From the NCBI RefSeq assembly GCF_044905095.1, contig NZ_CP173258.1, positions 2,931,277-2,995,276 of the forward strand: a stretch of DNA of 64,000 nucleotides. The letters are read 5' to 3'. Source of the DNA: Sphingomonas sp. MMS24-J13. Lineage in GTDB: Bacteria > Pseudomonadota > Alphaproteobacteria > Sphingomonadales > Sphingomonadaceae. The position numbers and the translations under genes were made by a program. The notes beneath the pieces were generated by a model. That model was not told where the DNA came from. It saw only the letters and a program-made list of their open reading frames with translations, and did no database searches. This document shows positions 38,167 to 43,956 of the stretch, one piece after another. The first letter of the stretch is position 1. Each line of letters opens with the position of its first letter.

Positions 38167-39348
38167 ATGTTCCCGGCGAGTATGCCAGTGCTGATCATTG
38201 CTGGCGTTCCCTTGGCTGTGGGACTGCTATTCTCGACCGCGATCCATATCGTCTGGCGACGACGCCGCGAGGCCCGCCATGCCCGCACCTGGAGCCTGGC
38301 TTTCGCCGTGATCGCGGCGGGCTGGGGGCTGACGATCATGACCGGATGGATCGCCGGCTCATCGCCCGTGCCCGGGATTGCAGCAAGCCTATCCTGGCTC
38401 GCGGCCGCCTTGCTGTTCGTCCACGGGCTGCGTCAGCGCGAGCGGCGGGCCGATCGCGGCGCGGTGCTTGCCGCGATCTGGGCTGCCATCGCAGTCTGCG
38501 ACGGCCTGCTGATCGATATGAATCCGGGACGATTTCCGCTTCTGTCCGGCGGCGCACCCGTCCTCACGGCGATCGGGCTGCTGCTGGCGGCGATCGCGGT
38601 CGGCCCGCGCCTCCGCCGGAGCGGTTCGCTCGATTGGATCGCCGCCGCTTTGCTGCTGAGCTTCGCGACAGGCAATATCCTGCTCGACGCACTGATGATC
38701 GCGGATGGATCGGCCTTTCCGATGATCCTCATCGTGCCGCTGTTGAGTGTAATCATCTATGTCGGCCTCGGGCTGGCGGCGATGCTGCTGCTATCCGAAG
38801 ATCTCACGATCGCGCTCGAGCGGGTCGCCCGCATCGATCCGCTGACCGGGCTATGGAACCGGCGCGCATTCAACGAAGCGGCCCCCCATATGCTCGAGCA
38901 GTTGGCATCGTCGCAGATGCCGTTGCAGGCTTCGGTGGCTTTGTCGGACATCGATGCGTTCAAGAGCATCAACGATCGCTTCGGACATAATGTCGGCGAC
39001 GAGGTGCTGGCGGAATTTGCCCGGACGCTGAAAAACGAGATGGGCCACAACGACCTGCTCGCGAGGCTGGGAGGCGAGGAGTTCGTCTTGCTGGCGATCG
39101 GCCTCGACGGGCCGGCCCTGCTCGAGCGGGTCGAACTGCTGCGCAAGGCGATCGGCGTCCGGCATTATGCCGATGGCAGGCTGCCCCCGATCACGGCCAG
39201 CTTCGGCGTTGCGGAAATCTCGCCCTACACGCTCGGCCTGCGCGATGCGCTCGAGCGTGCCGACCGCGCACTCTACAGCGCCAAGGAGAATGGCCGCAAT
39301 TGCTCGGTGCTCGATCCGACCCCCGACGGCGACGAGCCGAACACGTAG
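38167..39348 (+). CDS. Membrane diguanylate cyclase (multi-TM N-terminal sensor + GGDEF)
   Basis: Six or more TM helices, then GGDEF with RLGGEEFVLL. Confidence 0.8.
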   Translation: MFPASMPVLIIAGVPLAVGLLFSTAIHIVWRRRREARHARTWSLAFAVIAAGWGLTIMTGWIAGSSPVPGIAASLSWLAAALLFVHGLRQRERRADRGAVLAAIWAAIAVCDGLLIDMNPGRFPLLSGGAPVLTAIGLLLAAIAVGPRLRRSGSLDWIAAALLLSFATGNILLDALMIADGSAFPMILIVPLLSVIIYVGLGLAAMLLLSEDLTIALERVARIDPLTGLWNRRAFNEAAPHMLEQLASSQMPLQASVALSDIDAFKSINDRFGHNVGDEVLAEFARTLKNEMGHNDLLARLGGEEFVLLAIGLDGPALLERVELLRKAIGVRHYADGRLPPITASFGVAEISPYTLGLRDALERADRALYSAKENGRNCSVLDPTPDGDEPNT

Positions 39349-39420
39349 AAAATCCGCCTCAGCACCGGCAGGCGCATACCACATTTAAACGCGGATGCGC
39401 GACGGCTCGTCATGACTGCG

Positions 39421-39624
39421 TCAGGCGTTGGACGGGGATCCGTTCGGCATCGACATGCCGGTACCGATACGCGCAGTGCGGTCGGCGTCATCGATCGCGG
39501 CGAGCAACGTATCGAAGCTGGTGATCCGCTCGATCGGATAGACGCGGCGCAGCCCCTCGCCGAGGCCGCGCAAGTCCGCCTCGGTCAAGAAAGCCACGGC
39601 TACGATGCGATCATCTTGCCCCAT
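39421..39624 (-). CDS. Hypothetical small protein (67 aa)
   Basis: High GC3 codon usage. No homology recognised. Confidence 0.25.
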   Translation of the reverse strand: MGQDDRIVAVAFLTEADLRGLGEGLRRVYPIERITSFDTLLAAIDDADRTARIGTGMSMPNGSPSNA

Positions 39625-39744
39625 ATCACCCCAACGCGTCAGTCGCCGATCGGACCCATGACAAAGTGTTTTGATTGACCCCGGTTAAAGACACCGGAAG
39701 TGGCGCGTGAGACATTCTCGTCCTGATGGAATGGGACGACGGAC

Positions 39745-39933
39745 ATGGGCATGCAAAGCTCGACGGATCGGGATTATCTGCGCAAGCGCGAAGTCGAGGA
39801 GCGTGAGGCTGCGGCGAAAGCGGCGGATGGTGCCAGGCTGATCCACCTGGAACTCGCCAAGCTCTATGCCATGCGGCTGGAGCGTGACGATGACGGGCCG
39901 TTGCTGCGCGCTGTCGGCGGATCGAACGCCTGA
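39745..39933 (+). CDS. Hypothetical small charged protein (62 aa)
   Basis: High GC3. Lys/Arg/Glu-rich helix. 81 nt upstream of the ClpP-like gene on the same strand. Confidence 0.3.
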   Translation: MGMQSSTDRDYLRKREVEEREAAAKAADGARLIHLELAKLYAMRLERDDDGPLLRAVGGSNA

Positions 39934-40014
39934 CATCGATAAATCGTTTTTTCCATGAACTCTGGCGCCCATAGCGGCGTTGTCGCGCCTCTATTCTCTC
40001 AACTCAGGTGATCG

Positions 40015-40587
40015 ATGGTGGCGCAAGAGCTTCAGCCCGGCGACTTTCTCGATCCGGCTATCATCCTATCGGGGCCGGTCGACTATGACATGTATGCCTC
40101 GTTCCGCGAGCAACTGCGCCGTGCGCCGGATACGGGCCTCGTGGTAACGACGCTCGCGACGCTCGGTGGCGACCCCGAGGTGGCACGGGTCATGGGCGAG
40201 GATATCCGCTTCCACAGCGATCATGAGGCCGAGAAGCGCCGCTTCGTCTTTCTCGGCAAGGCAGCGATCTATTCGGCCGGCACGACCTTCATGAGCTTCT
40301 TCGCGCCGGAAAATCGCTATCTCACCCGCGGCACCCGGCTGATGGTTCACGAGCGCAAATTATCGAAGCAGCTTTCTATCGATGGCCCGCTGACGACCTG
40401 CATCGCCACCGTCCAGGCGCAGCTGAACGAGATCGAAGCATCGATCGCGATCCAGAACGAGGGGTTCGAAAACCTTATCCGCGGATCGCGGGTAACGATC
40501 GACGAGGTTCTCGAGAAGGCGCCAAACAACTGGTATATCGAGGCCAATGAAGCCCTGTCGCTCGGGCTGATCCACGCAGTCCTGTAA
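40015..40587 (+). CDS. ClpP-fold serine peptidase-like protein (short S14/SDH-type)
   Basis: ClpP-like Ser (AAIYSAGTTF) and His (TRLMVHER) contexts, and the C-terminal ANEALSLGLIHAVL helix. Confidence 0.55.
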   Translation: MVAQELQPGDFLDPAIILSGPVDYDMYASFREQLRRAPDTGLVVTTLATLGGDPEVARVMGEDIRFHSDHEAEKRRFVFLGKAAIYSAGTTFMSFFAPENRYLTRGTRLMVHERKLSKQLSIDGPLTTCIATVQAQLNEIEASIAIQNEGFENLIRGSRVTIDEVLEKAPNNWYIEANEALSLGLIHAVL

Positions 40588-40590
40588 ACC

Positions 40591-40611
40591 CCCTCCCCGC
40601 CGGGGAGAGGG
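40591..40611. terminator. Bidirectional terminator hairpin ccctccccgccggggagaggg
   Basis: GC stem between convergent stops 40587 and 40618. Confidence 0.6.
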
Positions 40612-40617
40612 AATCTT

Positions 40618-41145
40618 CTAGCCCTTGACTTTCACCGCTGACATCTTCGCTTGGGGCAACTTGCCGGCATCCGCCAGAGCCTTCAATTCGGCCTTGCGCG
40701 TGGCAAGCTCAGCGCCCAGCTTGTCCATGTCGAGATCGGTGTGGCTAGCCTGCGAAAACATGCCGCGCAGCCACTTCTCTTCCTCCTGGACATGGTGCCT
40801 TATCTCTTCTGAGAGAACCTTCACCTTGGCATCGTAATAGGGATCGGTCGGCTTCGCGGCCACGAGATCGTTGATCAGCACCTTGGCGCCATCATGCTCG
40901 ACCACCCCTTCGTCGACGATATCGGCATCGATCTTCGGCCGTACGGCGGGATAGAAGATCTCTTCCTCGATGATCGTGTGGATCTTGAGTTCGTTGCAGA
41001 TCTGCTCGACCAGCCGGGCTTTGGTATCCGAACGCCGGGCCTTGTCGAATTCTTCGAACAGGCCGTCCACGGCACGATGGTCGGCCTTGAGCAGGCTGAT
41101 CGCGTCGATCGGCTTGGGCGGCGCCTTGGTCGATGCTTTAGCCAT
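40618..41145 (-). CDS. Hemerythrin HHE cation-binding domain protein
   Basis: H..D/HxxxE patterns (LKADHRAV, HTIIEEEIFYP, HHVQEEE). Start taken at MAKAST, giving an 8-nt overlap with the upstream gene. Confidence 0.7.
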   Translation of the reverse strand: MAKASTKAPPKPIDAISLLKADHRAVDGLFEEFDKARRSDTKARLVEQICNELKIHTIIEEEIFYPAVRPKIDADIVDEGVVEHDGAKVLINDLVAAKPTDPYYDAKVKVLSEEIRHHVQEEEKWLRGMFSQASHTDLDMDKLGAELATRKAELKALADAGKLPQAKMSAVKVKG

Positions 41146-42067
41146 GATAGGTGTCTCCATTCGAGGCGTCGAACCAGAGGATCGCCCGGTATCGATCGAA
41201 ACAGCGTGCGCCGCAGGTCAGGCGCATGAGCGCGCCTTCGGCGATCGCGGTCGCGCGGCGCGGATCCTCTCGCACCAGCGGTATCAGCGCCTCGCGGTTC
41301 CAGTCCTCGCTGTGCTTGACGTCGAGCACGGCATGGAGATCGAAATAGCGCCGTTCGCGATCGGACAGCCCGATGCGACGCAGCCCTGCCGCAACGCAGG
41401 CCGACCGTCCCGGTGCGGTCAATTCGATCACGCCGAGTGCGCCGACCGAATGCCAGGCATAACGCCGGCTCGTCGCCATGGCGGTCATCGCGTTTGCGAG
41501 CGCCAGGCTTTCCCACACGGTGTTCTCGATGACTGGCGTGACCGCGAGCGTTTCGACCAGCGTATCGAGCATCGGCCCGTGCATGCCCCTGGCATTGCCG
41601 CGGCCCATCTCATCCCAATAATTCCGCGCCAGTTCGAGCTTGGCCTGGACCGGTAATTTGACTTGCGTAAGCGCGACGAGATCGTCGAAGCCGGCTTCGC
41701 CGGCGGCCTCCTGTTCGAAGAACCAGCGCAGTTGATCACGATCGGCCTGCTCCGCGAGCCAGGGAAACAGAGCATCGCCTTGCCCCGGCCCAACTTGCTT
41801 TAAGTCCTCGAACCAGGAGACGAACGCCTCTGCCTCGGTCGGTGCCTCGGCCGCCTGATCGATCACGCTCACGCGCAATTCTTCGAGATAGGCACCTTCC
41901 AACCGTTGCATGCGCAGGTCGCGCTCCAGCGTCTTCTGCCAGCCGGTATCGGGGAAACCCGGTGCGAGCCGCTCGCGATTCCAATGTGCGAGCCCACGTT
42001 GGAAACTGTCGGTGAGAAATTGCGATCGGGCATGGCTTTGCCCGCGTGCATCGATGGAATGCAGCAT
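41138..42067 (-). CDS. Heme-oxygenase-like fold 'iron-containing redox enzyme family' protein
   Basis: Helical protein with conserved E/H ligand pattern (ELARNYWDEMGRGN...HGPM..., DLHAVLDVKHSEDW). Overlaps the hemerythrin gene. Confidence 0.55.
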   Translation of the reverse strand: MLHSIDARGQSHARSQFLTDSFQRGLAHWNRERLAPGFPDTGWQKTLERDLRMQRLEGAYLEELRVSVIDQAAEAPTEAEAFVSWFEDLKQVGPGQGDALFPWLAEQADRDQLRWFFEQEAAGEAGFDDLVALTQVKLPVQAKLELARNYWDEMGRGNARGMHGPMLDTLVETLAVTPVIENTVWESLALANAMTAMATSRRYAWHSVGALGVIELTAPGRSACVAAGLRRIGLSDRERRYFDLHAVLDVKHSEDWNREALIPLVREDPRRATAIAEGALMRLTCGARCFDRYRAILWFDASNGDTYHG

Positions 42068-42206
42068 CTTAGCTCCTGAACTGGTGAGGGGCCCGATTGC
42101 CGTTGACCCGGTCGAACATGAGGGAAGAACTGCCCACGGCGCCCGGAGTTGCCGAACATCTGCACAATTAACGAAGGTTAGGACGAATCATGCCTTGCCT
42201 TGGGCC

Positions 42207-42449
42207 CTAACGTCCGACGATTTTGACCGCCTCGGAAAAGGGAATGTTCGCGAGAATTGTCCCTTCGTCATCGACGATCTCGAGCCGGCCATCCAGGTTC
42301 AGTTCGCCCTCCAGCACCTCTGCGCTCAGAAAGGAGCGAATGCCTTCGAGGCCCGCTCGGCGCGCGGCTGCCAGATCGGCGAAATTCGCCCCTTCGGGGT
42401 CGAGCACAGCGCCTACGCTGTTATAAACGTTCAACCGCAGATGAGGCAT
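42207..42449 (-). CDS. DUF6894-like small protein
   Basis: Start MPHLRLNVYNSVGAVLDPEG...ADLAAARRAG matches the DUF6894 pattern (MPRYxFxxxDG...D.EG.E..D..AAR). Confidence 0.5.
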   Translation of the reverse strand: MPHLRLNVYNSVGAVLDPEGANFADLAAARRAGLEGIRSFLSAEVLEGELNLDGRLEIVDDEGTILANIPFSEAVKIVGR

Positions 42450-42508
42450 GCGCCCAAAAATGCTTCTAACCCCGCGGAGTTTCACAATTAACCCGTGTTT
42501 GGTCGATT

Positions 42509-43249
42509 CTAAGCATCGGCCTTGCGAAGTTGCAGGTAGGCGGCATCGAATTCGCCGATCGTCGCGAGCCGATCGAAATCGCAGATCCGGACGCTATCGG
42601 CTTCCTTGGTCACGATCCCGTCCTCGCGCAACCGCTTGAGCACGCGGTTGAGGTGGATAGGGGTGAGGCCGACCGCATCGGCCAGATTGATCTGGGTAAT
42701 CGCGAACGGGAAGCAGCCGTCCTCGCCAAGCCCGATCGCACGATAGCGCAGGCTCATTTCGCAAAGCAGATGTGCGACCCGCGCCGCCGCATCCTTGCGC
42801 GCGATATTGACGTTCCATTGCGCCATCACATTGCCGTCGACGACGCAATCGCGCCAGAAAGCGAGCGCGATCGCGGGGAAGCGAACGGTCAGATCGGTGA
42901 GCGCGGCGTGGGGCACGCGCAGGATCGTGGTCGGCACGACGGCATGCAACGCCCAGGTCACGTTGGGCATCACGACAGAATGGAGATCGGCCATATCGCC
43001 CGGGATGTGGAAGGCGACGAAACCACGGGTGCCGTTTCTGATCTGCGCGAAACGCGCAACCAAACCGTCGACGATCAGGCAGGCATGTTTGATCTTGTCG
43101 CCGATGCGGACGAAATCATGTTGCACGTCGACAATGCTGGCGGATGCCGGCAATCTGAGGATCGCCTGCTTCTCCTCATCGGACAGAACCGATCGCACGA
43201 GCAATCGATCGAGATACAGGGCCAGCGCCTGCTCAACAGTTCGTATCAT
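42509..43249 (-). CDS. Crp/Fnr-family transcriptional regulator
   Basis: cNMP-binding-like beta-roll plus C-terminal HTH (ITQINLADAVGLTPIHLNRVLKRLREDGIV). Confidence 0.8.
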   Translation of the reverse strand: MIRTVEQALALYLDRLLVRSVLSDEEKQAILRLPASASIVDVQHDFVRIGDKIKHACLIVDGLVARFAQIRNGTRGFVAFHIPGDMADLHSVVMPNVTWALHAVVPTTILRVPHAALTDLTVRFPAIALAFWRDCVVDGNVMAQWNVNIARKDAAARVAHLLCEMSLRYRAIGLGEDGCFPFAITQINLADAVGLTPIHLNRVLKRLREDGIVTKEADSVRICDFDRLATIGEFDAAYLQLRKADA

Positions 43250-43305
43250 TGATGCCTCCGCCGCGCATATCGAAACAGCGCGGCGAGAGTTCCGTCCAAT
43301 GAGTG

Positions 43306-43956
43306 TCAGGCCAGTTCGGCGATCATGCTTTTCGCGCGGGCGACGGCCGCATCGCGCTGCTCGTCACCAAGCTTCACGCCTTCGGCGACGACAACCTCCA
43401 GATCGGTGACGCCGAACGTGGCGAACACCGTGCGCAGCCAGGTTTCGGCATGCTCGGCATCGCGCCCGGGCGTGCCCGGCGCATAGATCCCACCGCGCGC
43501 AATCGCGAGGATCACCTTCTTGCTCCCGGCCAGGCCCTCCGGGCCCGCGGCGGTATAGCGAAAGGTCTTTCCCGGCACGAACAGCCGGTCGACCCACGCC
43601 TTGAGCTGGGTCGGTACGGTGAAATTATAGAGCGCGACGCCGATCACGACCGTGTCGGCGGCAAGGAATTCATCGAGCGCATCTGCATCCTGCGCATGCG
43701 CCTGCCCGGCCATCAACGCGGCGATCCCCTCGCCGCTCAGGTGCGCCAGCGGATCGGCAGCGAGATCGCGATAGGTGACCGTCGCATCGGGATGAACCGC
43801 GCTCAACCGCGCCACCGCTGCCGCGGACAGATCACGGCTGATCGAATGGGGCCCGAGGATACTCGAATTGATATGGAGGATCTGCATGGTCGTGCTCCGG
43901 TCTGGAATTGTGACCTGGACCACATATGTGACTCTGCGTGCCTGCCAAGGAGGCAT
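43306..43956 (-). CDS. azoR: FMN-dependent NADH-azoreductase / NAD(P)H quinone oxidoreductase
   Basis: MQILHINSSILGPHSISR N-terminus and flavodoxin-like fold pattern. Confidence 0.75.
   Translation of the reverse strand: MPPWQARRVTYVVQVTIPDRSTTMQILHINSSILGPHSISRDLSAAAVARLSAVHPDATVTYRDLAADPLAHLSGEGIAALMAGQAHAQDADALDEFLAADTVVIGVALYNFTVPTQLKAWVDRLFVPGKTFRYTAAGPEGLAGSKKVILAIARGGIYAPGTPGRDAEHAETWLRTVFATFGVTDLEVVVAEGVKLGDEQRDAAVARAKSMIAELA

What the first reader, a model, noticed from the sequence alone, without database searches (positions are those of the whole stretch)
40015..42485. Overlapping heme-oxygenase-like diiron enzyme and hemerythrin pair, flanked by a ClpP-like peptidase, a DUF6894 gene and a Crp/Fnr regulator
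The HO-like 'iron-containing redox enzyme family' gene (41138-42067) overlaps the hemerythrin-domain gene (start 41145) by 8 nt, which suggests a functional pair. HO-like diiron oxidases/oxygenases (SznF, UndA, BesC class) catalyse unusual N- and C-oxygenations. A dedicated hemerythrin could deliver O2 or iron, or sense O2. Convergent downstream is a ClpP-fold peptidase preceded by two tiny ORFs. Upstream are a DUF6894 protein and a Crp/Fnr regulator (the Fnr subclass is often O2- or NO-responsive). The island has slightly lower GC in its intergenic regions.
Basis: inference. Interest (0 to 1): 0.55.

Follow-up and report, generated by a model that had tools for sequence, protein, structure and literature searches.

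The report
Stress-regulon diiron oxygenase plus inserted hemerythrin
The genes are real and the oxygenase has an intact two-iron site, but the hemerythrin is a recent local insertion, not a conserved partner; both genes belong to families switched on by the general stress response in related bacteria.

Summary
An HDO gene (41138-42067, -) overlaps a hemerythrin gene (40618-41145, -) by 8 nt (ATGGCTAA). A ClpP-fold gene, a DUF6894 gene and a Crp-family gene flank them. The HDO is closest to the L-lysine N-oxygenase HrmI (E 2.6e-30, TM 0.75-0.77). All six metal ligands (E153 H163 E215 H245 D249 H252) are invariant.

The "dedicated pair" reading is mostly not supported. None of 80 species loci with an orthologue (76-86% identity) has an adjacent hemerythrin. 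Three of the four closest relatives (91-92%) lack it. In the window, hemerythrin plus ClpP-like form a 1.24-kb low-GC insertion (39935-41173) at the HDO 3' end. The same adjacency recurs only in L084 and L085/L086. There is no Fnr box and no Fnr cysteine cluster.

Two things emerged instead. In 65 of 80 species the HDO has a sigma-EcfG promoter (GGAAC-N15-18-[CG]GTT) 17-48 nt upstream. Its probable S. melonis orthologue and HHE hemerythrins are EcfG-dependent in published RNA-seq. The HDO's recurrent partner is an NPPY N-methyltransferase (14/80 loci, one fusion), often with an SDF symporter.

Verdict: an orphan, stress-regulated HDO with a lineage-specific hemerythrin neighbour. Moderate interest.

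The parts
41138..42067 (-). Heme-oxygenase-like diiron oxidase/oxygenase (HDO), 309 aa. Ligands E153, H163, E215, H245, D249, H252; second-sphere Y241.
   Evidence: PF14518 E 8.2e-43. HrmI 9n1a E 2.6e-30. Ligand columns invariant in 48 homologues. AF2 pLDDT 79, pTM 0.81. Foldseek top hits are HrmI at TM 0.75-0.77, then RohS, BesC, FlcD, CADD and SznF.
40618..41145 (-). Single-domain hemerythrin (HHE) protein, 175 aa. Its start overlaps the HDO stop by 8 nt (ATGGCTAA). SD GGAGA lies at 41158-41154, inside the HDO tail.
   Evidence: PF01814 E 8.1e-13. H23, H56/E60, H84, H117-H118/E121-E122 invariant in 22 homologues. PDB 6q09 E 6.2e-8. The junction is conserved in L084.
40015..40587 (+). Divergent ClpP-fold (peptidase S14-like) protein, 190 aa. 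Ser87 and His112 are invariant; Asn172 sits at the position of the catalytic Asp.
   Evidence: AF2 pLDDT 92. Foldseek matches ClpP at TM about 0.72 and 17-20% identity. Invariant columns. Weak sequence hits only.
39935..41173 (.). 1.24-kb block (ClpP-like plus hemerythrin) absent from the closest syntenic relatives; read as an insertion at the 3' end of the HDO gene. It also supplies the last ~11 codons of the HDO.
   Evidence: blastn synteny with L081-L083 breaks at about 39934 and at 41173/41174. HDO C-terminal tails differ from that point on. GC is 0.592, in the lowest 0.3% of 1.24-kb windows.
42068..42193 (-). Conserved 5' leader/promoter region of the HDO in this clade (GATTCGYCCTAAC ... 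CGGCAAC ... TTCAGGAG-ATG). Nature unknown; it is not an EcfG consensus.
   Evidence: Conserved in window and L081-L084, even where the upstream gene differs. No Rfam match. Weak consensus fold, -10.5 kcal/mol.
42207..42485 (-). DUF6894 protein, 92 aa.
   Evidence: PF21834 E 7.7e-12. Adjacent to a Crp-family gene in L012, L040, L063, L075, L081-L083 and L087-L089.
42509..43249 (-). Crp/Fnr-superfamily regulator, 246 aa, not of the Fnr (Fe-S) subclass. First gene of the probable crp-DUF6894-HDO-hemerythrin transcription unit.
   Evidence: HTH_Crp_2 E 6.6e-15. FixK 47.5 bits and Fnr 47.1 bits against cut-offs of 300 and 228. No N-terminal Cys cluster in the sequence.
43269..43293 (-). Near-consensus EcfG-type promoter GGAAC-N16-CGAT, ending 19 nt before the crp start codon.
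   Evidence: Sequence read. The element is identical in L082 and L083 and has two changes in L081, while its flanks vary. Consensus taken from PMC7083833 and PMC6599016. Function is inferred, not shown.
39956..39981 (+). EcfG-like motif TGAAC-N17-CGTT, 33 nt upstream of the ClpP-like start (one mismatch in the -35 element).
   Evidence: Weak: only 7 of 74 ClpP-like loci carry the strict motif.
39745..39933 (+). Conserved small ORF (62 aa) of unknown function, bounding the insertion on the GGDEF side.
   Evidence: 63-80% protein identity in L081-L083. Called as a gene.

Best explanation
The locus is a lineage-specific juxtaposition of general-stress-response genes. It is not a conserved two-protein enzyme system.

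The HDO is an O2-activating diiron enzyme of the HrmI/BelK-like N-oxygenase branch. It belongs to a highly conserved family of stand-alone genes found across Sphingomonadales, and more distantly in Acetobacteraceae. In most species this gene is transcribed from a sigma-EcfG (general stress) promoter.

The hemerythrin belongs to a family that normally sits in EcfG-driven DUF5670-hemerythrin units. In this strain's lineage a 1.24-kb low-GC block carrying hemerythrin plus a ClpP-fold gene landed at the 3' end of the HDO gene. It replaced the last codons of the HDO and created the 8-nt overlap.

The hemerythrin is therefore now probably co-transcribed with crp-DUF6894-HDO and translationally coupled to the HDO. 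Transcription probably starts at a conserved GGAAC-N16-CGAT element upstream of crp and/or in the conserved HDO leader.

Inferred chemistry: the HDO N-oxygenates, or otherwise oxidises, an amine-bearing small molecule, most likely an amino acid or a derivative. In other species an adjacent NPPY N-methyltransferase and an SDF symporter act on the same substrate. The hemerythrin acts as a general stress-phase O2/iron/oxidant-handling protein. Any help it gives the labile HDO diiron site is opportunistic rather than obligatory.

Shown: gene identities, the ligand set, the insertion, the lack of conservation of the pair, and the motif enrichment. Inferred: operon structure, EcfG dependence in this strain, substrate class, and the role of the hemerythrin.
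For: Identity of the HDO:
- HrmI E 2.6e-30. Six ligands plus Y241 are invariant and match the BelK mutagenesis-validated set E205/H215/E269/H299/D303/H306/Y295 (PMC11611017). Fold match TM 0.75-0.77.

The pair is not conserved:
- None of 80 species loci has an adjacent hemerythrin or a ClpP-like gene, and no neighbour family is present in more than 14 of 80.
- L081-L083 keep Crp-DUF6894-HDO-small ORF-GGDEF without the hemerythrin.
- The synteny break is at 39935-41173, with GC 0.592.
- The slot is variable: L081 carries an amino-acid permease there.
- Hemerythrin orthologues at 74-88% identity sit elsewhere.
- In the NJ tree the hemerythrin-linked HDOs do not form one clade.

Stress regulon:
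- The strict motif GGAAC-N15-18-[CG]GTT lies in the 130-nt slot before the HDO start in 65 of 80 species, against 0.32 expected from the density elsewhere in the same loci (shuffle control).
- In S. melonis Fr1, gene 0787 ('hypothetical protein') has the motif GGAACGATAGCGGAAACAGGCGGTT 54 nt from its CDS and a log2 change of -3.2 in the ecfG mutant (PMC6599016). L044 has a 23/25-identical motif exactly 54 nt before its HDO start, and its 90% protein cluster contains S. melonis proteins.
- HHE hemerythrins are EcfG-dependent in S. melonis (0733, log2 -2.5) and in S. granuli (SGRAN_2661, 67-fold).
- DUF5670-hemerythrin units carry the motif.
- A Crp-type gene (0072) is among the top EcfG targets in S. 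melonis.
- The GGAAC-N16-CGAT element upstream of crp is conserved in 4 of 4 clade members.
Against: - The window's own HDO lacks a canonical EcfG motif directly upstream. The element upstream of crp has a non-consensus -10 (CGAT) and is untested.
- The HDO-hemerythrin overlap recurs in two HDO clades: window/L084 and L085/L086, the latter also with the ClpP-like gene. ClpP-like-HDO (L095) and ClpP-like-hemerythrin (L141, L151) adjacencies also exist. This is somewhat more than chance and could reflect a real, facultative functional link.
- The identification of S. melonis 0787 as the HDO orthologue is an inference from promoter identity and distance, not a sequence match.
- No substrate is known. 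The HrmI substrate-binding residues could not be compared because the paper is not held.
Confidence: 0.6

Rival explanations
1. Dedicated partnership. The hemerythrin is an accessory of the HDO that delivers iron or O2 to its labile diiron site, or senses O2 for it. The overlap exists to give stoichiometric co-expression.
For: - An 8-nt overlap with an SD inside the HDO tail is kept in L084, and a 20-nt overlap occurs in L085/L086, whose HDO is only 79% identical and sits in another clade.
- HDO diiron clusters are described as labile (PMC13108848).
- Three of 80 species loci have a hemerythrin gene within 6 kb, against a rough expectation of about 1.
Against: - None of 80 species loci has it adjacent. 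Three of four nearest relatives lack it.
- A hemerythrin orthologue at 88% identity lies next to an ImmA-like gene.
- The usual partner of the hemerythrin is DUF5670.
- Characterised HDOs work without such a partner. The word 'hemerythrin' does not occur in the HDO review or in the eight best-ranked HDO papers of a literature search.
Confidence: 0.15
2. Neutral hitch-hiking. The site between the HDO and the small ORF/GGDEF gene is a recombination hot spot. The hemerythrin plus ClpP-like block landed there with no selected relation to the HDO, whether functional or regulatory.
For: - Different cargo occupies the same slot in L081 (AA_permease plus a 76-aa ORF), and nothing in L082/L083.
- The block has outlier GC.
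- All three gene families have highly variable neighbourhoods.
Against: - The junction is precise, in-frame and provides an SD and start overlap, and it is retained in L084 at 86% DNA identity.
- The same three families are found together again in L085/L086 in a different arrangement.
Confidence: 0.2
3. Secondary-metabolite enzyme. The HDO is an HrmI/BelK-type L-lysine N6-oxygenase that makes 6-nitronorleucine for a natural product.
For: The best PDB and fold match is HrmI. The ligand set and Y241 are identical to BelK/HrmI.
Against: - Only about 29% identity.
- No biosynthetic cluster around it in the window or in 80 loci.
- 76-92% conservation across many genera as a single gene with a stress promoter, which is not how natural-product genes are usually distributed.
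Confidence: 0.04

Closest known systems
HrmI / BelK (HDO L-lysine N6-oxygenases of hormaomycin and belactosin biosynthesis; PDB 9n1a, 9n1x, 9nh9)
   Same: Same fold, including the N-terminal extension (aligned over residues 55-300; TM 0.75-0.77). Same 3His/3carboxylate ligands with identical spacing (E-x9-H ... E ... H-x3-D-x2-H). The conserved Tyr four residues before the first His of helix alpha-3 is also present.
   Different: About 29% identity. Not in a biosynthetic gene cluster. A stand-alone gene conserved at 76-92% across Sphingomonadales and preceded by a general-stress promoter in most species. Substrate unknown.
SznE/SznF (streptozotocin: N-methyltransferase plus HDO N-oxygenase)
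   Same: In 14 of 80 orthologous loci, on two plasmids and in one fusion protein, the HDO is paired with an N-methyltransferase. That is the same two-step logic of methylating an amine or guanidine and then N-oxygenating it. SznF is a fold match.
   Different: SznF has a 3His/4carboxylate site and a C-terminal cupin domain, and neither is present here. The methyltransferase is an NPPY/HemK-GenN-like enzyme; its relation to SznE was not tested. The window itself has no such methyltransferase within 64 kb.
PA2171 (P. aeruginosa hemerythrin-like ribosome- and FtsZ-binding persister protein) and the M. kansasii hemerythrin-like protein (PDB 6q09)
   Same: Single-domain HHE proteins of about 160-180 aa. 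Best NCBIfam hit is NF053874 (E 1.5e-22) and best PDB hit is 6q09 (E 6.2e-8). Stress or persistence association.
   Different: 80 bits against a family cut-off of 190, so not an equivalog of PA2171. Ribosome binding was not tested. Different gene context: PA2171-PA2173 in Pseudomonas, DUF5670-hemerythrin in sphingomonads.
Alphaproteobacterial general stress response regulon (PhyR-NepR-sigma EcfG)
   Same: The canonical GGAAC-N16/17-CGTT promoter precedes HDO orthologues in 81% of species. HHE hemerythrin, Crp-type regulator and Mn-catalase genes in related loci carry it too. There is published RNA-seq support in S. melonis and S. granuli.
   Different: In this window the HDO itself has no canonical motif. 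Only a near-consensus element upstream of crp (43269-43293) and one upstream of the ClpP-like gene (39956-39981) are present. Neither has been tested.
ClpP (peptidase S14)
   Same: Same fold (TM about 0.72). Ser and His of the triad are conserved and invariant.
   Different: 17-20% identity, no Pfam PF00574 hit, and Asn at the catalytic Asp position. No adjacent Clp ATPase. Oligomeric state and activity unknown.

Membership tests
[quoted passage not shown] | Sequence match to the family profile above the curated threshold | tested here: met
   PF14518, 146.7 bits against a cut-off of 28.9
[quoted passage not shown] | Seven-helix heme-oxygenase-like fold | tested here: met
   All-helical AF2 model, pLDDT 79, pTM 0.81. 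The first 22 PDB matches are all HDOs: HrmI, RohS, BesC, FlcD, CADD and a CADD-like protein, SznF, PolF.
[quoted passage not shown] | 3 His + 3 carboxylate primary ligands on core helices 1-3 | tested here: met
   E153, H163, E215, H245, D249 and H252 align with the HrmI/BelK ligands and are invariant in 48 homologues. The geometry in the model could not be inspected because no coordinates were available.
[quoted passage not shown] | Binds two iron ions (or Fe/Mn) and activates O2 | not testable with these tools
   Needs metal analysis, Moessbauer spectroscopy and stopped-flow kinetics
HrmI/BelK L-lysine N6-oxygenases | Close sequence relationship to HrmI/BelK | tested here: inconclusive
   E 2.6e-30 but only about 29% identity. 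Same branch, not demonstrably the same function.
HrmI/BelK L-lysine N6-oxygenases | Located in a nitro/aminocyclopropylalanine biosynthetic cluster | tested here: not met
   No biosynthetic genes in the window. No conserved neighbours apart from a methyltransferase and a symporter in 80 loci.
HrmI/BelK L-lysine N6-oxygenases | Lysine-binding residues of HrmI conserved | not tested
   The structure paper (JACS 2025, 147:30210) is not held, so the residue list was unavailable.
Hemerythrin/HHE cation-binding domain | Profile match and the H, HxxxE, H, HxxxE ligand motif | tested here: met
   PF01814, 49.4 bits against 25.3. H23, H56/E60, H84 and H117-118/E121-122 are invariant.
PA2171 ribosome-binding persister family (NF053874) | Score above the NCBIfam equivalog cut-off | tested here: not met
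   80.1 bits against a cut-off of 190
Fnr subclass of Crp/Fnr regulators | N-terminal Cys cluster for a [4Fe-4S] centre, an Fnr-type profile match, and TTGAT-N4-ATCAA target boxes | tested here: not met
   No Cys before about residue 57 (sequence). Fnr 47 bits against 228 and FixK 47.5 against 300. No box upstream of the HDO, DUF6894 or crp genes, and the window count is at chance level.
ClpP / peptidase S14 | ClpP fold with a Ser-His-Asp triad and a family profile match | tested here: inconclusive
   The fold is met (TM 0.72). Ser87 and His112 are invariant, but Asn172 replaces Asp. No PF00574 hit. NF009205 scores 20 bits against 228.
sigma-EcfG general stress regulon | GGAAC-N16/17-CGTT promoter within about 100 nt of the start codon | tested here: inconclusive
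   Met in 65 of 80 orthologous loci and absent directly upstream of the window's HDO. The conserved GGAAC-N16-CGAT upstream of crp is a candidate operon promoter.
sigma-EcfG general stress regulon | Expression depends on EcfG | not testable with these tools
   Published RNA-seq supports it for the probable S. melonis orthologue 0787 and for HHE hemerythrins. There are no data for this strain.

The most novel reading that the evidence does not exclude
The sphingomonad/acetobacter HDO family is a general-stress-induced N-oxygenase. It works with an NPPY N-methyltransferase and an SDF-family transporter on an amino acid, possibly arginine or aspartate released from cyanophycin, as the Sphingobium clusters hint. 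The product would be an as yet unknown N-oxygenated stress metabolite. That would be SznE/SznF-like chemistry recruited into core stress physiology rather than antibiotic biosynthesis. In a few lineages, including this one, a hemerythrin and a ClpP-fold protein have been added as facultative helpers for metallation or turnover.
Probability: 0.15. Interest if true: 0.75.

Novelty: new member of a known kind. Interest (0 to 1): 0.38.

Why it matters
Only about a dozen HDOs have a known reaction, and nearly all of those serve natural-product or cofactor biosynthesis (PMC13108848). This clade is different. It is a single gene kept at 76-92% identity across Sphingomonadales, and it is usually preceded by the general-stress sigma-factor promoter.

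That gives HDO enzymologists a well-defined orphan with a physiological handle: stress induction, and a methyltransferase and symporter as partners. It also gives general-stress-response researchers an enzymatic effector that has so far been listed only as 'hypothetical protein'.

For this window specifically, the practical message is a caution. A tight gene overlap is not evidence of a conserved functional pair.

Tried and rejected
- Fnr-box search (TTGAT-N4-ATCAA, up to 2 mismatches): 17 hits against 11.9 expected, none in the relevant intergenic regions.
- Strict EcfG motif in the window: one hit, at 51271-51296, unrelated to this locus.
- Riboswitch or known RNA in the conserved HDO leader: no Rfam hit at E <= 1 across 39300-43400. 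The consensus fold is weak with little covariation.
- Terminator and promoter scans gave nothing above shuffle expectation that changes the operon picture.
- Conserved-neighbour analysis of the ClpP-like family: no partner in more than 5 of 80 loci. The EcfG motif is present in only 7 of 74, so this gene is not claimed as a regular member of the general stress regulon.
- Plasmid search for the HDO-hemerythrin-ClpP-like block: no record covers more than the HDO alone or the ClpP-like gene alone.
- The HrmI structure paper could not be retrieved, so substrate-pocket residues were not compared.
- The S. melonis strain in L181 does not carry the exact Fr1 promoter spacer. The link to gene 0787 rests on L044.
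- A secondary-metabolite reading and a CADD-like self-sacrificing reading were considered. CADD is only a distant fold match (TM 0.53-0.54) with no sequence hit.


Full report
SOURCE AND OBSERVATION. The HDO protein is 100% identical to an 'iron-containing redox enzyme family protein' of Sphingomonas sp. MMS24-J13.
- ClpP-like, 40015-40587 (+).
- Hemerythrin, 40618-41145 (-). The mechanical ORF extends to 41160.
- HDO, 41138-42067 (-).
- DUF6894, 42207-42485 (-).
- Crp-family regulator, 42509-43249 (-).

The hemerythrin start used by relatives is the ATG at 41145. GGAGA lies 8 nt upstream of it, inside the HDO tail. The HDO stop TAA lies within ATGGCTAA, so the overlap is 8 nt. The 62-aa ORF at 39745-39933 is a real conserved gene.

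GC is lower across the whole 39.35-43.25 kb stretch, coding DNA included. Values are 0.587-0.634 for its genes (0.58-0.61 for the intergenic stretches), against a window mean of 0.654.

WHAT THE HDO IS. It scores 146.7 bits on PF14518. Against solved structures the only strong hit is HrmI, the L-lysine N6-oxygenase of hormaomycin biosynthesis (E 2.6e-30, residues 55-300). Weak hits follow to FlcD and its relative 3bjd.

The alignment places query E153, H163, E215, H245, D249 and H252 on the HrmI ligand positions. These have the same spacing as BelK E205, H215, E269, H299, D303 and H306, each of which is essential by mutagenesis. Y241 falls on BelK Y295 (PMC11611017). All seven residues are invariant in 48 homologues.

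An AF2 model (pLDDT 79, pTM 0.81) finds HrmI first (TM 0.75-0.77, 29% identity). RohS, BesC, FlcD, CADD and SznF follow. I could not inspect the ligand geometry, and I could not compare substrate-pocket residues because the HrmI structure paper is not held.

THE HEMERYTHRIN, THE ClpP-LIKE PROTEIN AND THE REGULATOR.
- The hemerythrin has the full H/HxxxE/H/HxxxE set, invariant in 22 homologues. Its best curated family is the PA2171 persister family, but at 80 bits against a cut-off of 190. Its best structure match is the M. kansasii hemerythrin-like protein 6q09. PA2171 binds ribosomes and FtsZ (PMC13041383). That is a lead for function, not a finding about this protein.
- The ClpP-like protein gives a confident model (pLDDT 92) that superposes on ClpP (TM about 0.72). 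Ser87 and His112 are invariant, and Asn172 sits at the Asp position.
- The regulator is a Crp-superfamily protein but not an Fnr. It has no N-terminal cysteine cluster, it scores far below the Fnr and FixK cut-offs, and there is no Fnr box upstream of any of the three genes.

IS THE PAIR CONSERVED? A scan of one genome per species found 473 loci encoding a relative. The best 80 (76-86% identity, nearly all Sphingomonadales) were fetched with 6-kb flanks. In these:
- None has a hemerythrin adjacent to the HDO.
- Three have one within 6 kb (L025, L039, L040).
- None has the ClpP-like gene.
- De novo clustering of all neighbouring ORFs shows that no family accompanies the HDO in more than 14 of 80 loci.

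The four closest relatives (91-92% identity) are the most informative. L081, L082 and L083 keep the window's synteny on both sides: RR-HK-GGDEF on one side and Crp-DUF6894 on the other. Between the HDO and the small ORF they have either nothing or an amino-acid permease. DNA alignment puts the synteny break at 39935-41173, which is exactly ClpP-like plus hemerythrin.

From residue ~298 onward the HDO tails differ. The inserted block therefore supplies the last codons of the HDO and the overlap. Its GC (0.592) is in the lowest 0.3% of equally sized windows.

The fourth close relative, L084, does carry the same junction. One more lineage, L085/L086, has HDO-hemerythrin-ClpP-like all on one strand. 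There the HDO and hemerythrin are both 79% identical to the window's and the ClpP-like protein is 72% identical.

Seen from the hemerythrin side, orthologues at 74-88% identity lie next to an ImmA-like gene, an imuA-imuB-dnaE2 cassette, or most often a tiny DUF5670 gene.

Seen from the ClpP-like side, among 80 metagenomic loci one has the HDO adjacent (L095) and two have a hemerythrin adjacent (L141, L151). No partner is conserved.

In an NJ tree the hemerythrin-linked HDOs fall in two separate places and are interleaved with unlinked ones.

My reading is that the three families co-localise slightly more often than chance. This is a rough estimate, not a formal test. The association is rare, patchy and structurally variable. 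It is not what a dedicated two-component enzyme looks like.

REGULATION, THE UNEXPECTED RESULT. While reading the regions upstream of the HDO orthologues I noticed CGTT/GGTT about 30 nt before the start codons. A strict search for the alphaproteobacterial general-stress promoter GGAAC-N15-18-[CG]GTT finds it in the 130-nt slot before the HDO start in 65 of 80 species. The expectation from the motif's density elsewhere in the same 927 kb is 0.32. Shuffles give about 1 of 84 sequences (run on 84 upstream regions with a slightly relaxed -35 element). The consensus is taken from S. granuli TFA (GGAAC-N16-CGTT) and S. melonis Fr1 (GGAAC-N17-20-GTT) (PMC7083833, PMC6599016).

In the S. melonis Fr1 RNA-seq, gene 0787 ('hypothetical protein') is among the top EcfG-dependent genes. 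Its log2 change is -3.2, or -4.5 under stress, and its motif GGAACGATAGCGGAAACAGGCGGTT lies 54 nt from the CDS. Locus L044 has a 23/25-identical motif exactly 54 nt before its HDO start codon. Its 90%-identity protein cluster contains S. melonis proteins that IMG calls 'hypothetical protein'. I therefore infer that 0787 is the HDO orthologue. This is not proven, because I have no Fr1 sequence.

Other evidence points the same way:
- HHE hemerythrins are EcfG-dependent in both organisms (0733, log2 -2.5; SGRAN_2661, 67-fold).
- The DUF5670-hemerythrin units fetched here carry the motif about 30 nt before DUF5670.
- A Crp-type regulator (0072) is also a top EcfG target in S. melonis.
- In L087 a Mn-catalase-orf-DUF6894-Crp operon starts with the motif.

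The window's own clade is the exception. The HDO has no EcfG motif. Instead it has a 125-nt leader (42068-42193) that is conserved even in L084, where the upstream gene is different. That leader has no Rfam match and only a weak fold. Upstream of crp there is a GGAAC-N16-CGAT element (43293-43269). It is identical in L082 and L083 and has two changes in L081, while the surrounding sequence varies. It is a candidate EcfG promoter for a crp-DUF6894-HDO-hemerythrin unit, and it is untested. No terminator-like site separates these genes.

THE HDO'S REAL RECURRENT PARTNER. Findings:
- An NPPY class-I methyltransferase of about 330 aa lies near the HDO in 14 of 80 loci, in 13 of them within about 1.2 kb. 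It occurs upstream on the same strand, divergent, or downstream overlapping, and it is spread across several clades.
- It is fused to the HDO in representative P0126.
- It precedes the HDO on a Komagataeibacter plasmid, where the HDO is 58% identical and an EcfG motif lies upstream of the methyltransferase. It also precedes the HDO on a Sphingobium yanoikuyae plasmid.
- Its best structural relatives are the small-molecule amine N-methyltransferase GenN and HemK-type enzymes.
- An SDF-family symporter follows the HDO in 14 of 80 loci, and 10 of those also have the methyltransferase.
- Cyanophycinase and isoaspartyl peptidase genes lie just upstream in three Sphingobium-type loci and on the plasmid.

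This is the strongest guilt-by-association signal for the family. It suggests an amino-acid-derived amine that is N-methylated and then oxidised, which resembles SznE/SznF logic. The window has no such methyltransferase within 64 kb.

MECHANISM I COMMIT TO (confidence about 0.6).
- Shown: an intact HDO of the N-oxygenase branch; an intact HHE hemerythrin; a 1.24-kb insertion that created their overlap; lack of conservation of the pair; strong EcfG-motif enrichment for the HDO family.
- Inferred: under stress the crp-DUF6894-HDO-hemerythrin unit is transcribed, with the hemerythrin translationally coupled to the HDO. The HDO oxidises an amine-bearing small molecule using a peroxo-diiron(III) intermediate, as other HDO N-oxygenases do (PMC13108848). 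The hemerythrin acts as a general stress-phase O2, iron or oxidant-handling protein, and its co-expression with another diiron protein is convenient rather than obligatory.
- Rivals: a dedicated partnership (0.15), neutral hitch-hiking in a variable slot (0.2), and an HrmI-type natural-product role (0.04).

COMPARISON AND NOVELTY. The HDO is a member of the HDO superfamily, with all testable defining features met. It cannot be filed as an HrmI/BelK lysine oxygenase: the context test fails and pocket residues were not tested. The hemerythrin is not a PA2171 equivalog. The regulator is not an Fnr. The ClpP-like protein has the fold but not the canonical triad or profile.

None of the HDO papers I examined mentions a hemerythrin, and DUF6894 has no literature in the library.

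The locus is a new member of a known kind: an orphan HDO clade. The by-products are the stress-regulon membership and the methyltransferase-HDO-symporter module. They are modestly novel and testable, but they rest on other genomes, not on this window.

Noticed in passing
L012, L016, L023, L033, L039, L041, L043, L045, L050, L054, L056, L057, L061, L063; L185 6015-7016; L186 5894-6802; protein P0126: An NPPY class-I (GenN/HemK-like) N-methyltransferase lies near the HDO in 14 of 80 species loci (13 within about 1.2 kb, L041's about 4.5 kb away), in several orientations. It is also adjacent on Sphingobium and Komagataeibacter plasmids and is fused to the HDO in P0126. An SDF symporter follows the HDO in 14 of 80 loci. 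This is a much stronger association than with the hemerythrin.
   Followed up: partly
L185 7013-10843; L012 3219-4858; L057 and L061 3217-4859: Cyanophycin genes (cphA, cyanophycinase, isoaspartyl peptidase) lie directly upstream of methyltransferase-HDO-symporter on the same strand in Sphingobium-type loci. This hints at an Arg/Asp-derived substrate.
   Followed up: partly
80 genome loci, 17-48 nt upstream of the HDO start; L186 upstream of the methyltransferase: A canonical sigma-EcfG promoter (GGAAC-N15-18-[CG]GTT) precedes the HDO in 65 of 80 species, against about 0.3 expected. S. melonis Fr1 gene 0787, listed as 'hypothetical protein' among the top EcfG targets, is probably this HDO.
   Followed up: yes
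window 42068-42193 (-); repeats at 42163-42172 and 42483-42492: A 125-nt leader is conserved upstream of the HDO in the window clade, including L084, where the upstream gene differs. The 10-mer GTTAATTGTG occurs once in this leader and once at the DUF6894 start (2 hits against 0.47 expected). It could be a regulator site or an alternative sigma promoter; there is no Rfam match.
   Followed up: partly
window 42207-43249; L012, L040, L063, L075, L081-L083, L087-L089: DUF6894 and a Crp-family regulator recur as a neighbouring pair in both gene orders. They are often near the HDO or in an EcfG-driven Mn-catalase operon (L087). DUF6894 has no literature in the library.
   Followed up: partly
L087-L090, L175-L178, L180: The usual context of this hemerythrin family is a two-gene unit with a 49-50-aa DUF5670 gene immediately upstream, preceded by an EcfG motif. 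In L087 it sits in a stress island with Mn catalase, an SDR and HSP20.
   Followed up: partly
window 39935-41173 versus L081 6934-9005: The slot between the HDO and the small ORF/GGDEF gene is variable. It holds ClpP-like plus hemerythrin here, a 76-aa ORF plus an amino-acid permease in L081, and nothing in L082 or L083.
   Followed up: yes
window 40015-40587: The ClpP-fold family ('peptidase S14' in NCBI names) is conserved at about 70-86% identity across sphingomonads as a stand-alone gene. Ser and His are invariant, but Asn replaces the catalytic Asp, and no Clp ATPase lies nearby.
   Followed up: partly
L085 1-3785: The only locus with HDO-hemerythrin-ClpP-like on one strand also carries a second hemerythrin, a pyridine-nucleotide disulfide oxidoreductase and two PAS-HWE histidine kinases. 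HWE kinases are the kinase type that feeds the general stress response.
   Followed up: no
L017/L019 (Sphingomonas sp. DBB INV C78); L020/L043 (one MAG): Some genomes carry two HDO paralogues of this family at about 80% identity to the window protein.
   Followed up: no
L044 (NZ_QDFQ01000001.1): The record is titled Arthrobacter sp. TPD3018, but its HDO is in a 90% cluster with Sphingomonas melonis and S. aquatilis proteins and it has a sphingomonad EcfG promoter. The assembly is probably mislabelled or contaminated.
   Followed up: no
window 51271-51296 (-): This is the only strict EcfG consensus in the 64-kb window (GGAACGGCTTCGTATCTCAATACGTT). The downstream gene was not examined.
   Followed up: no
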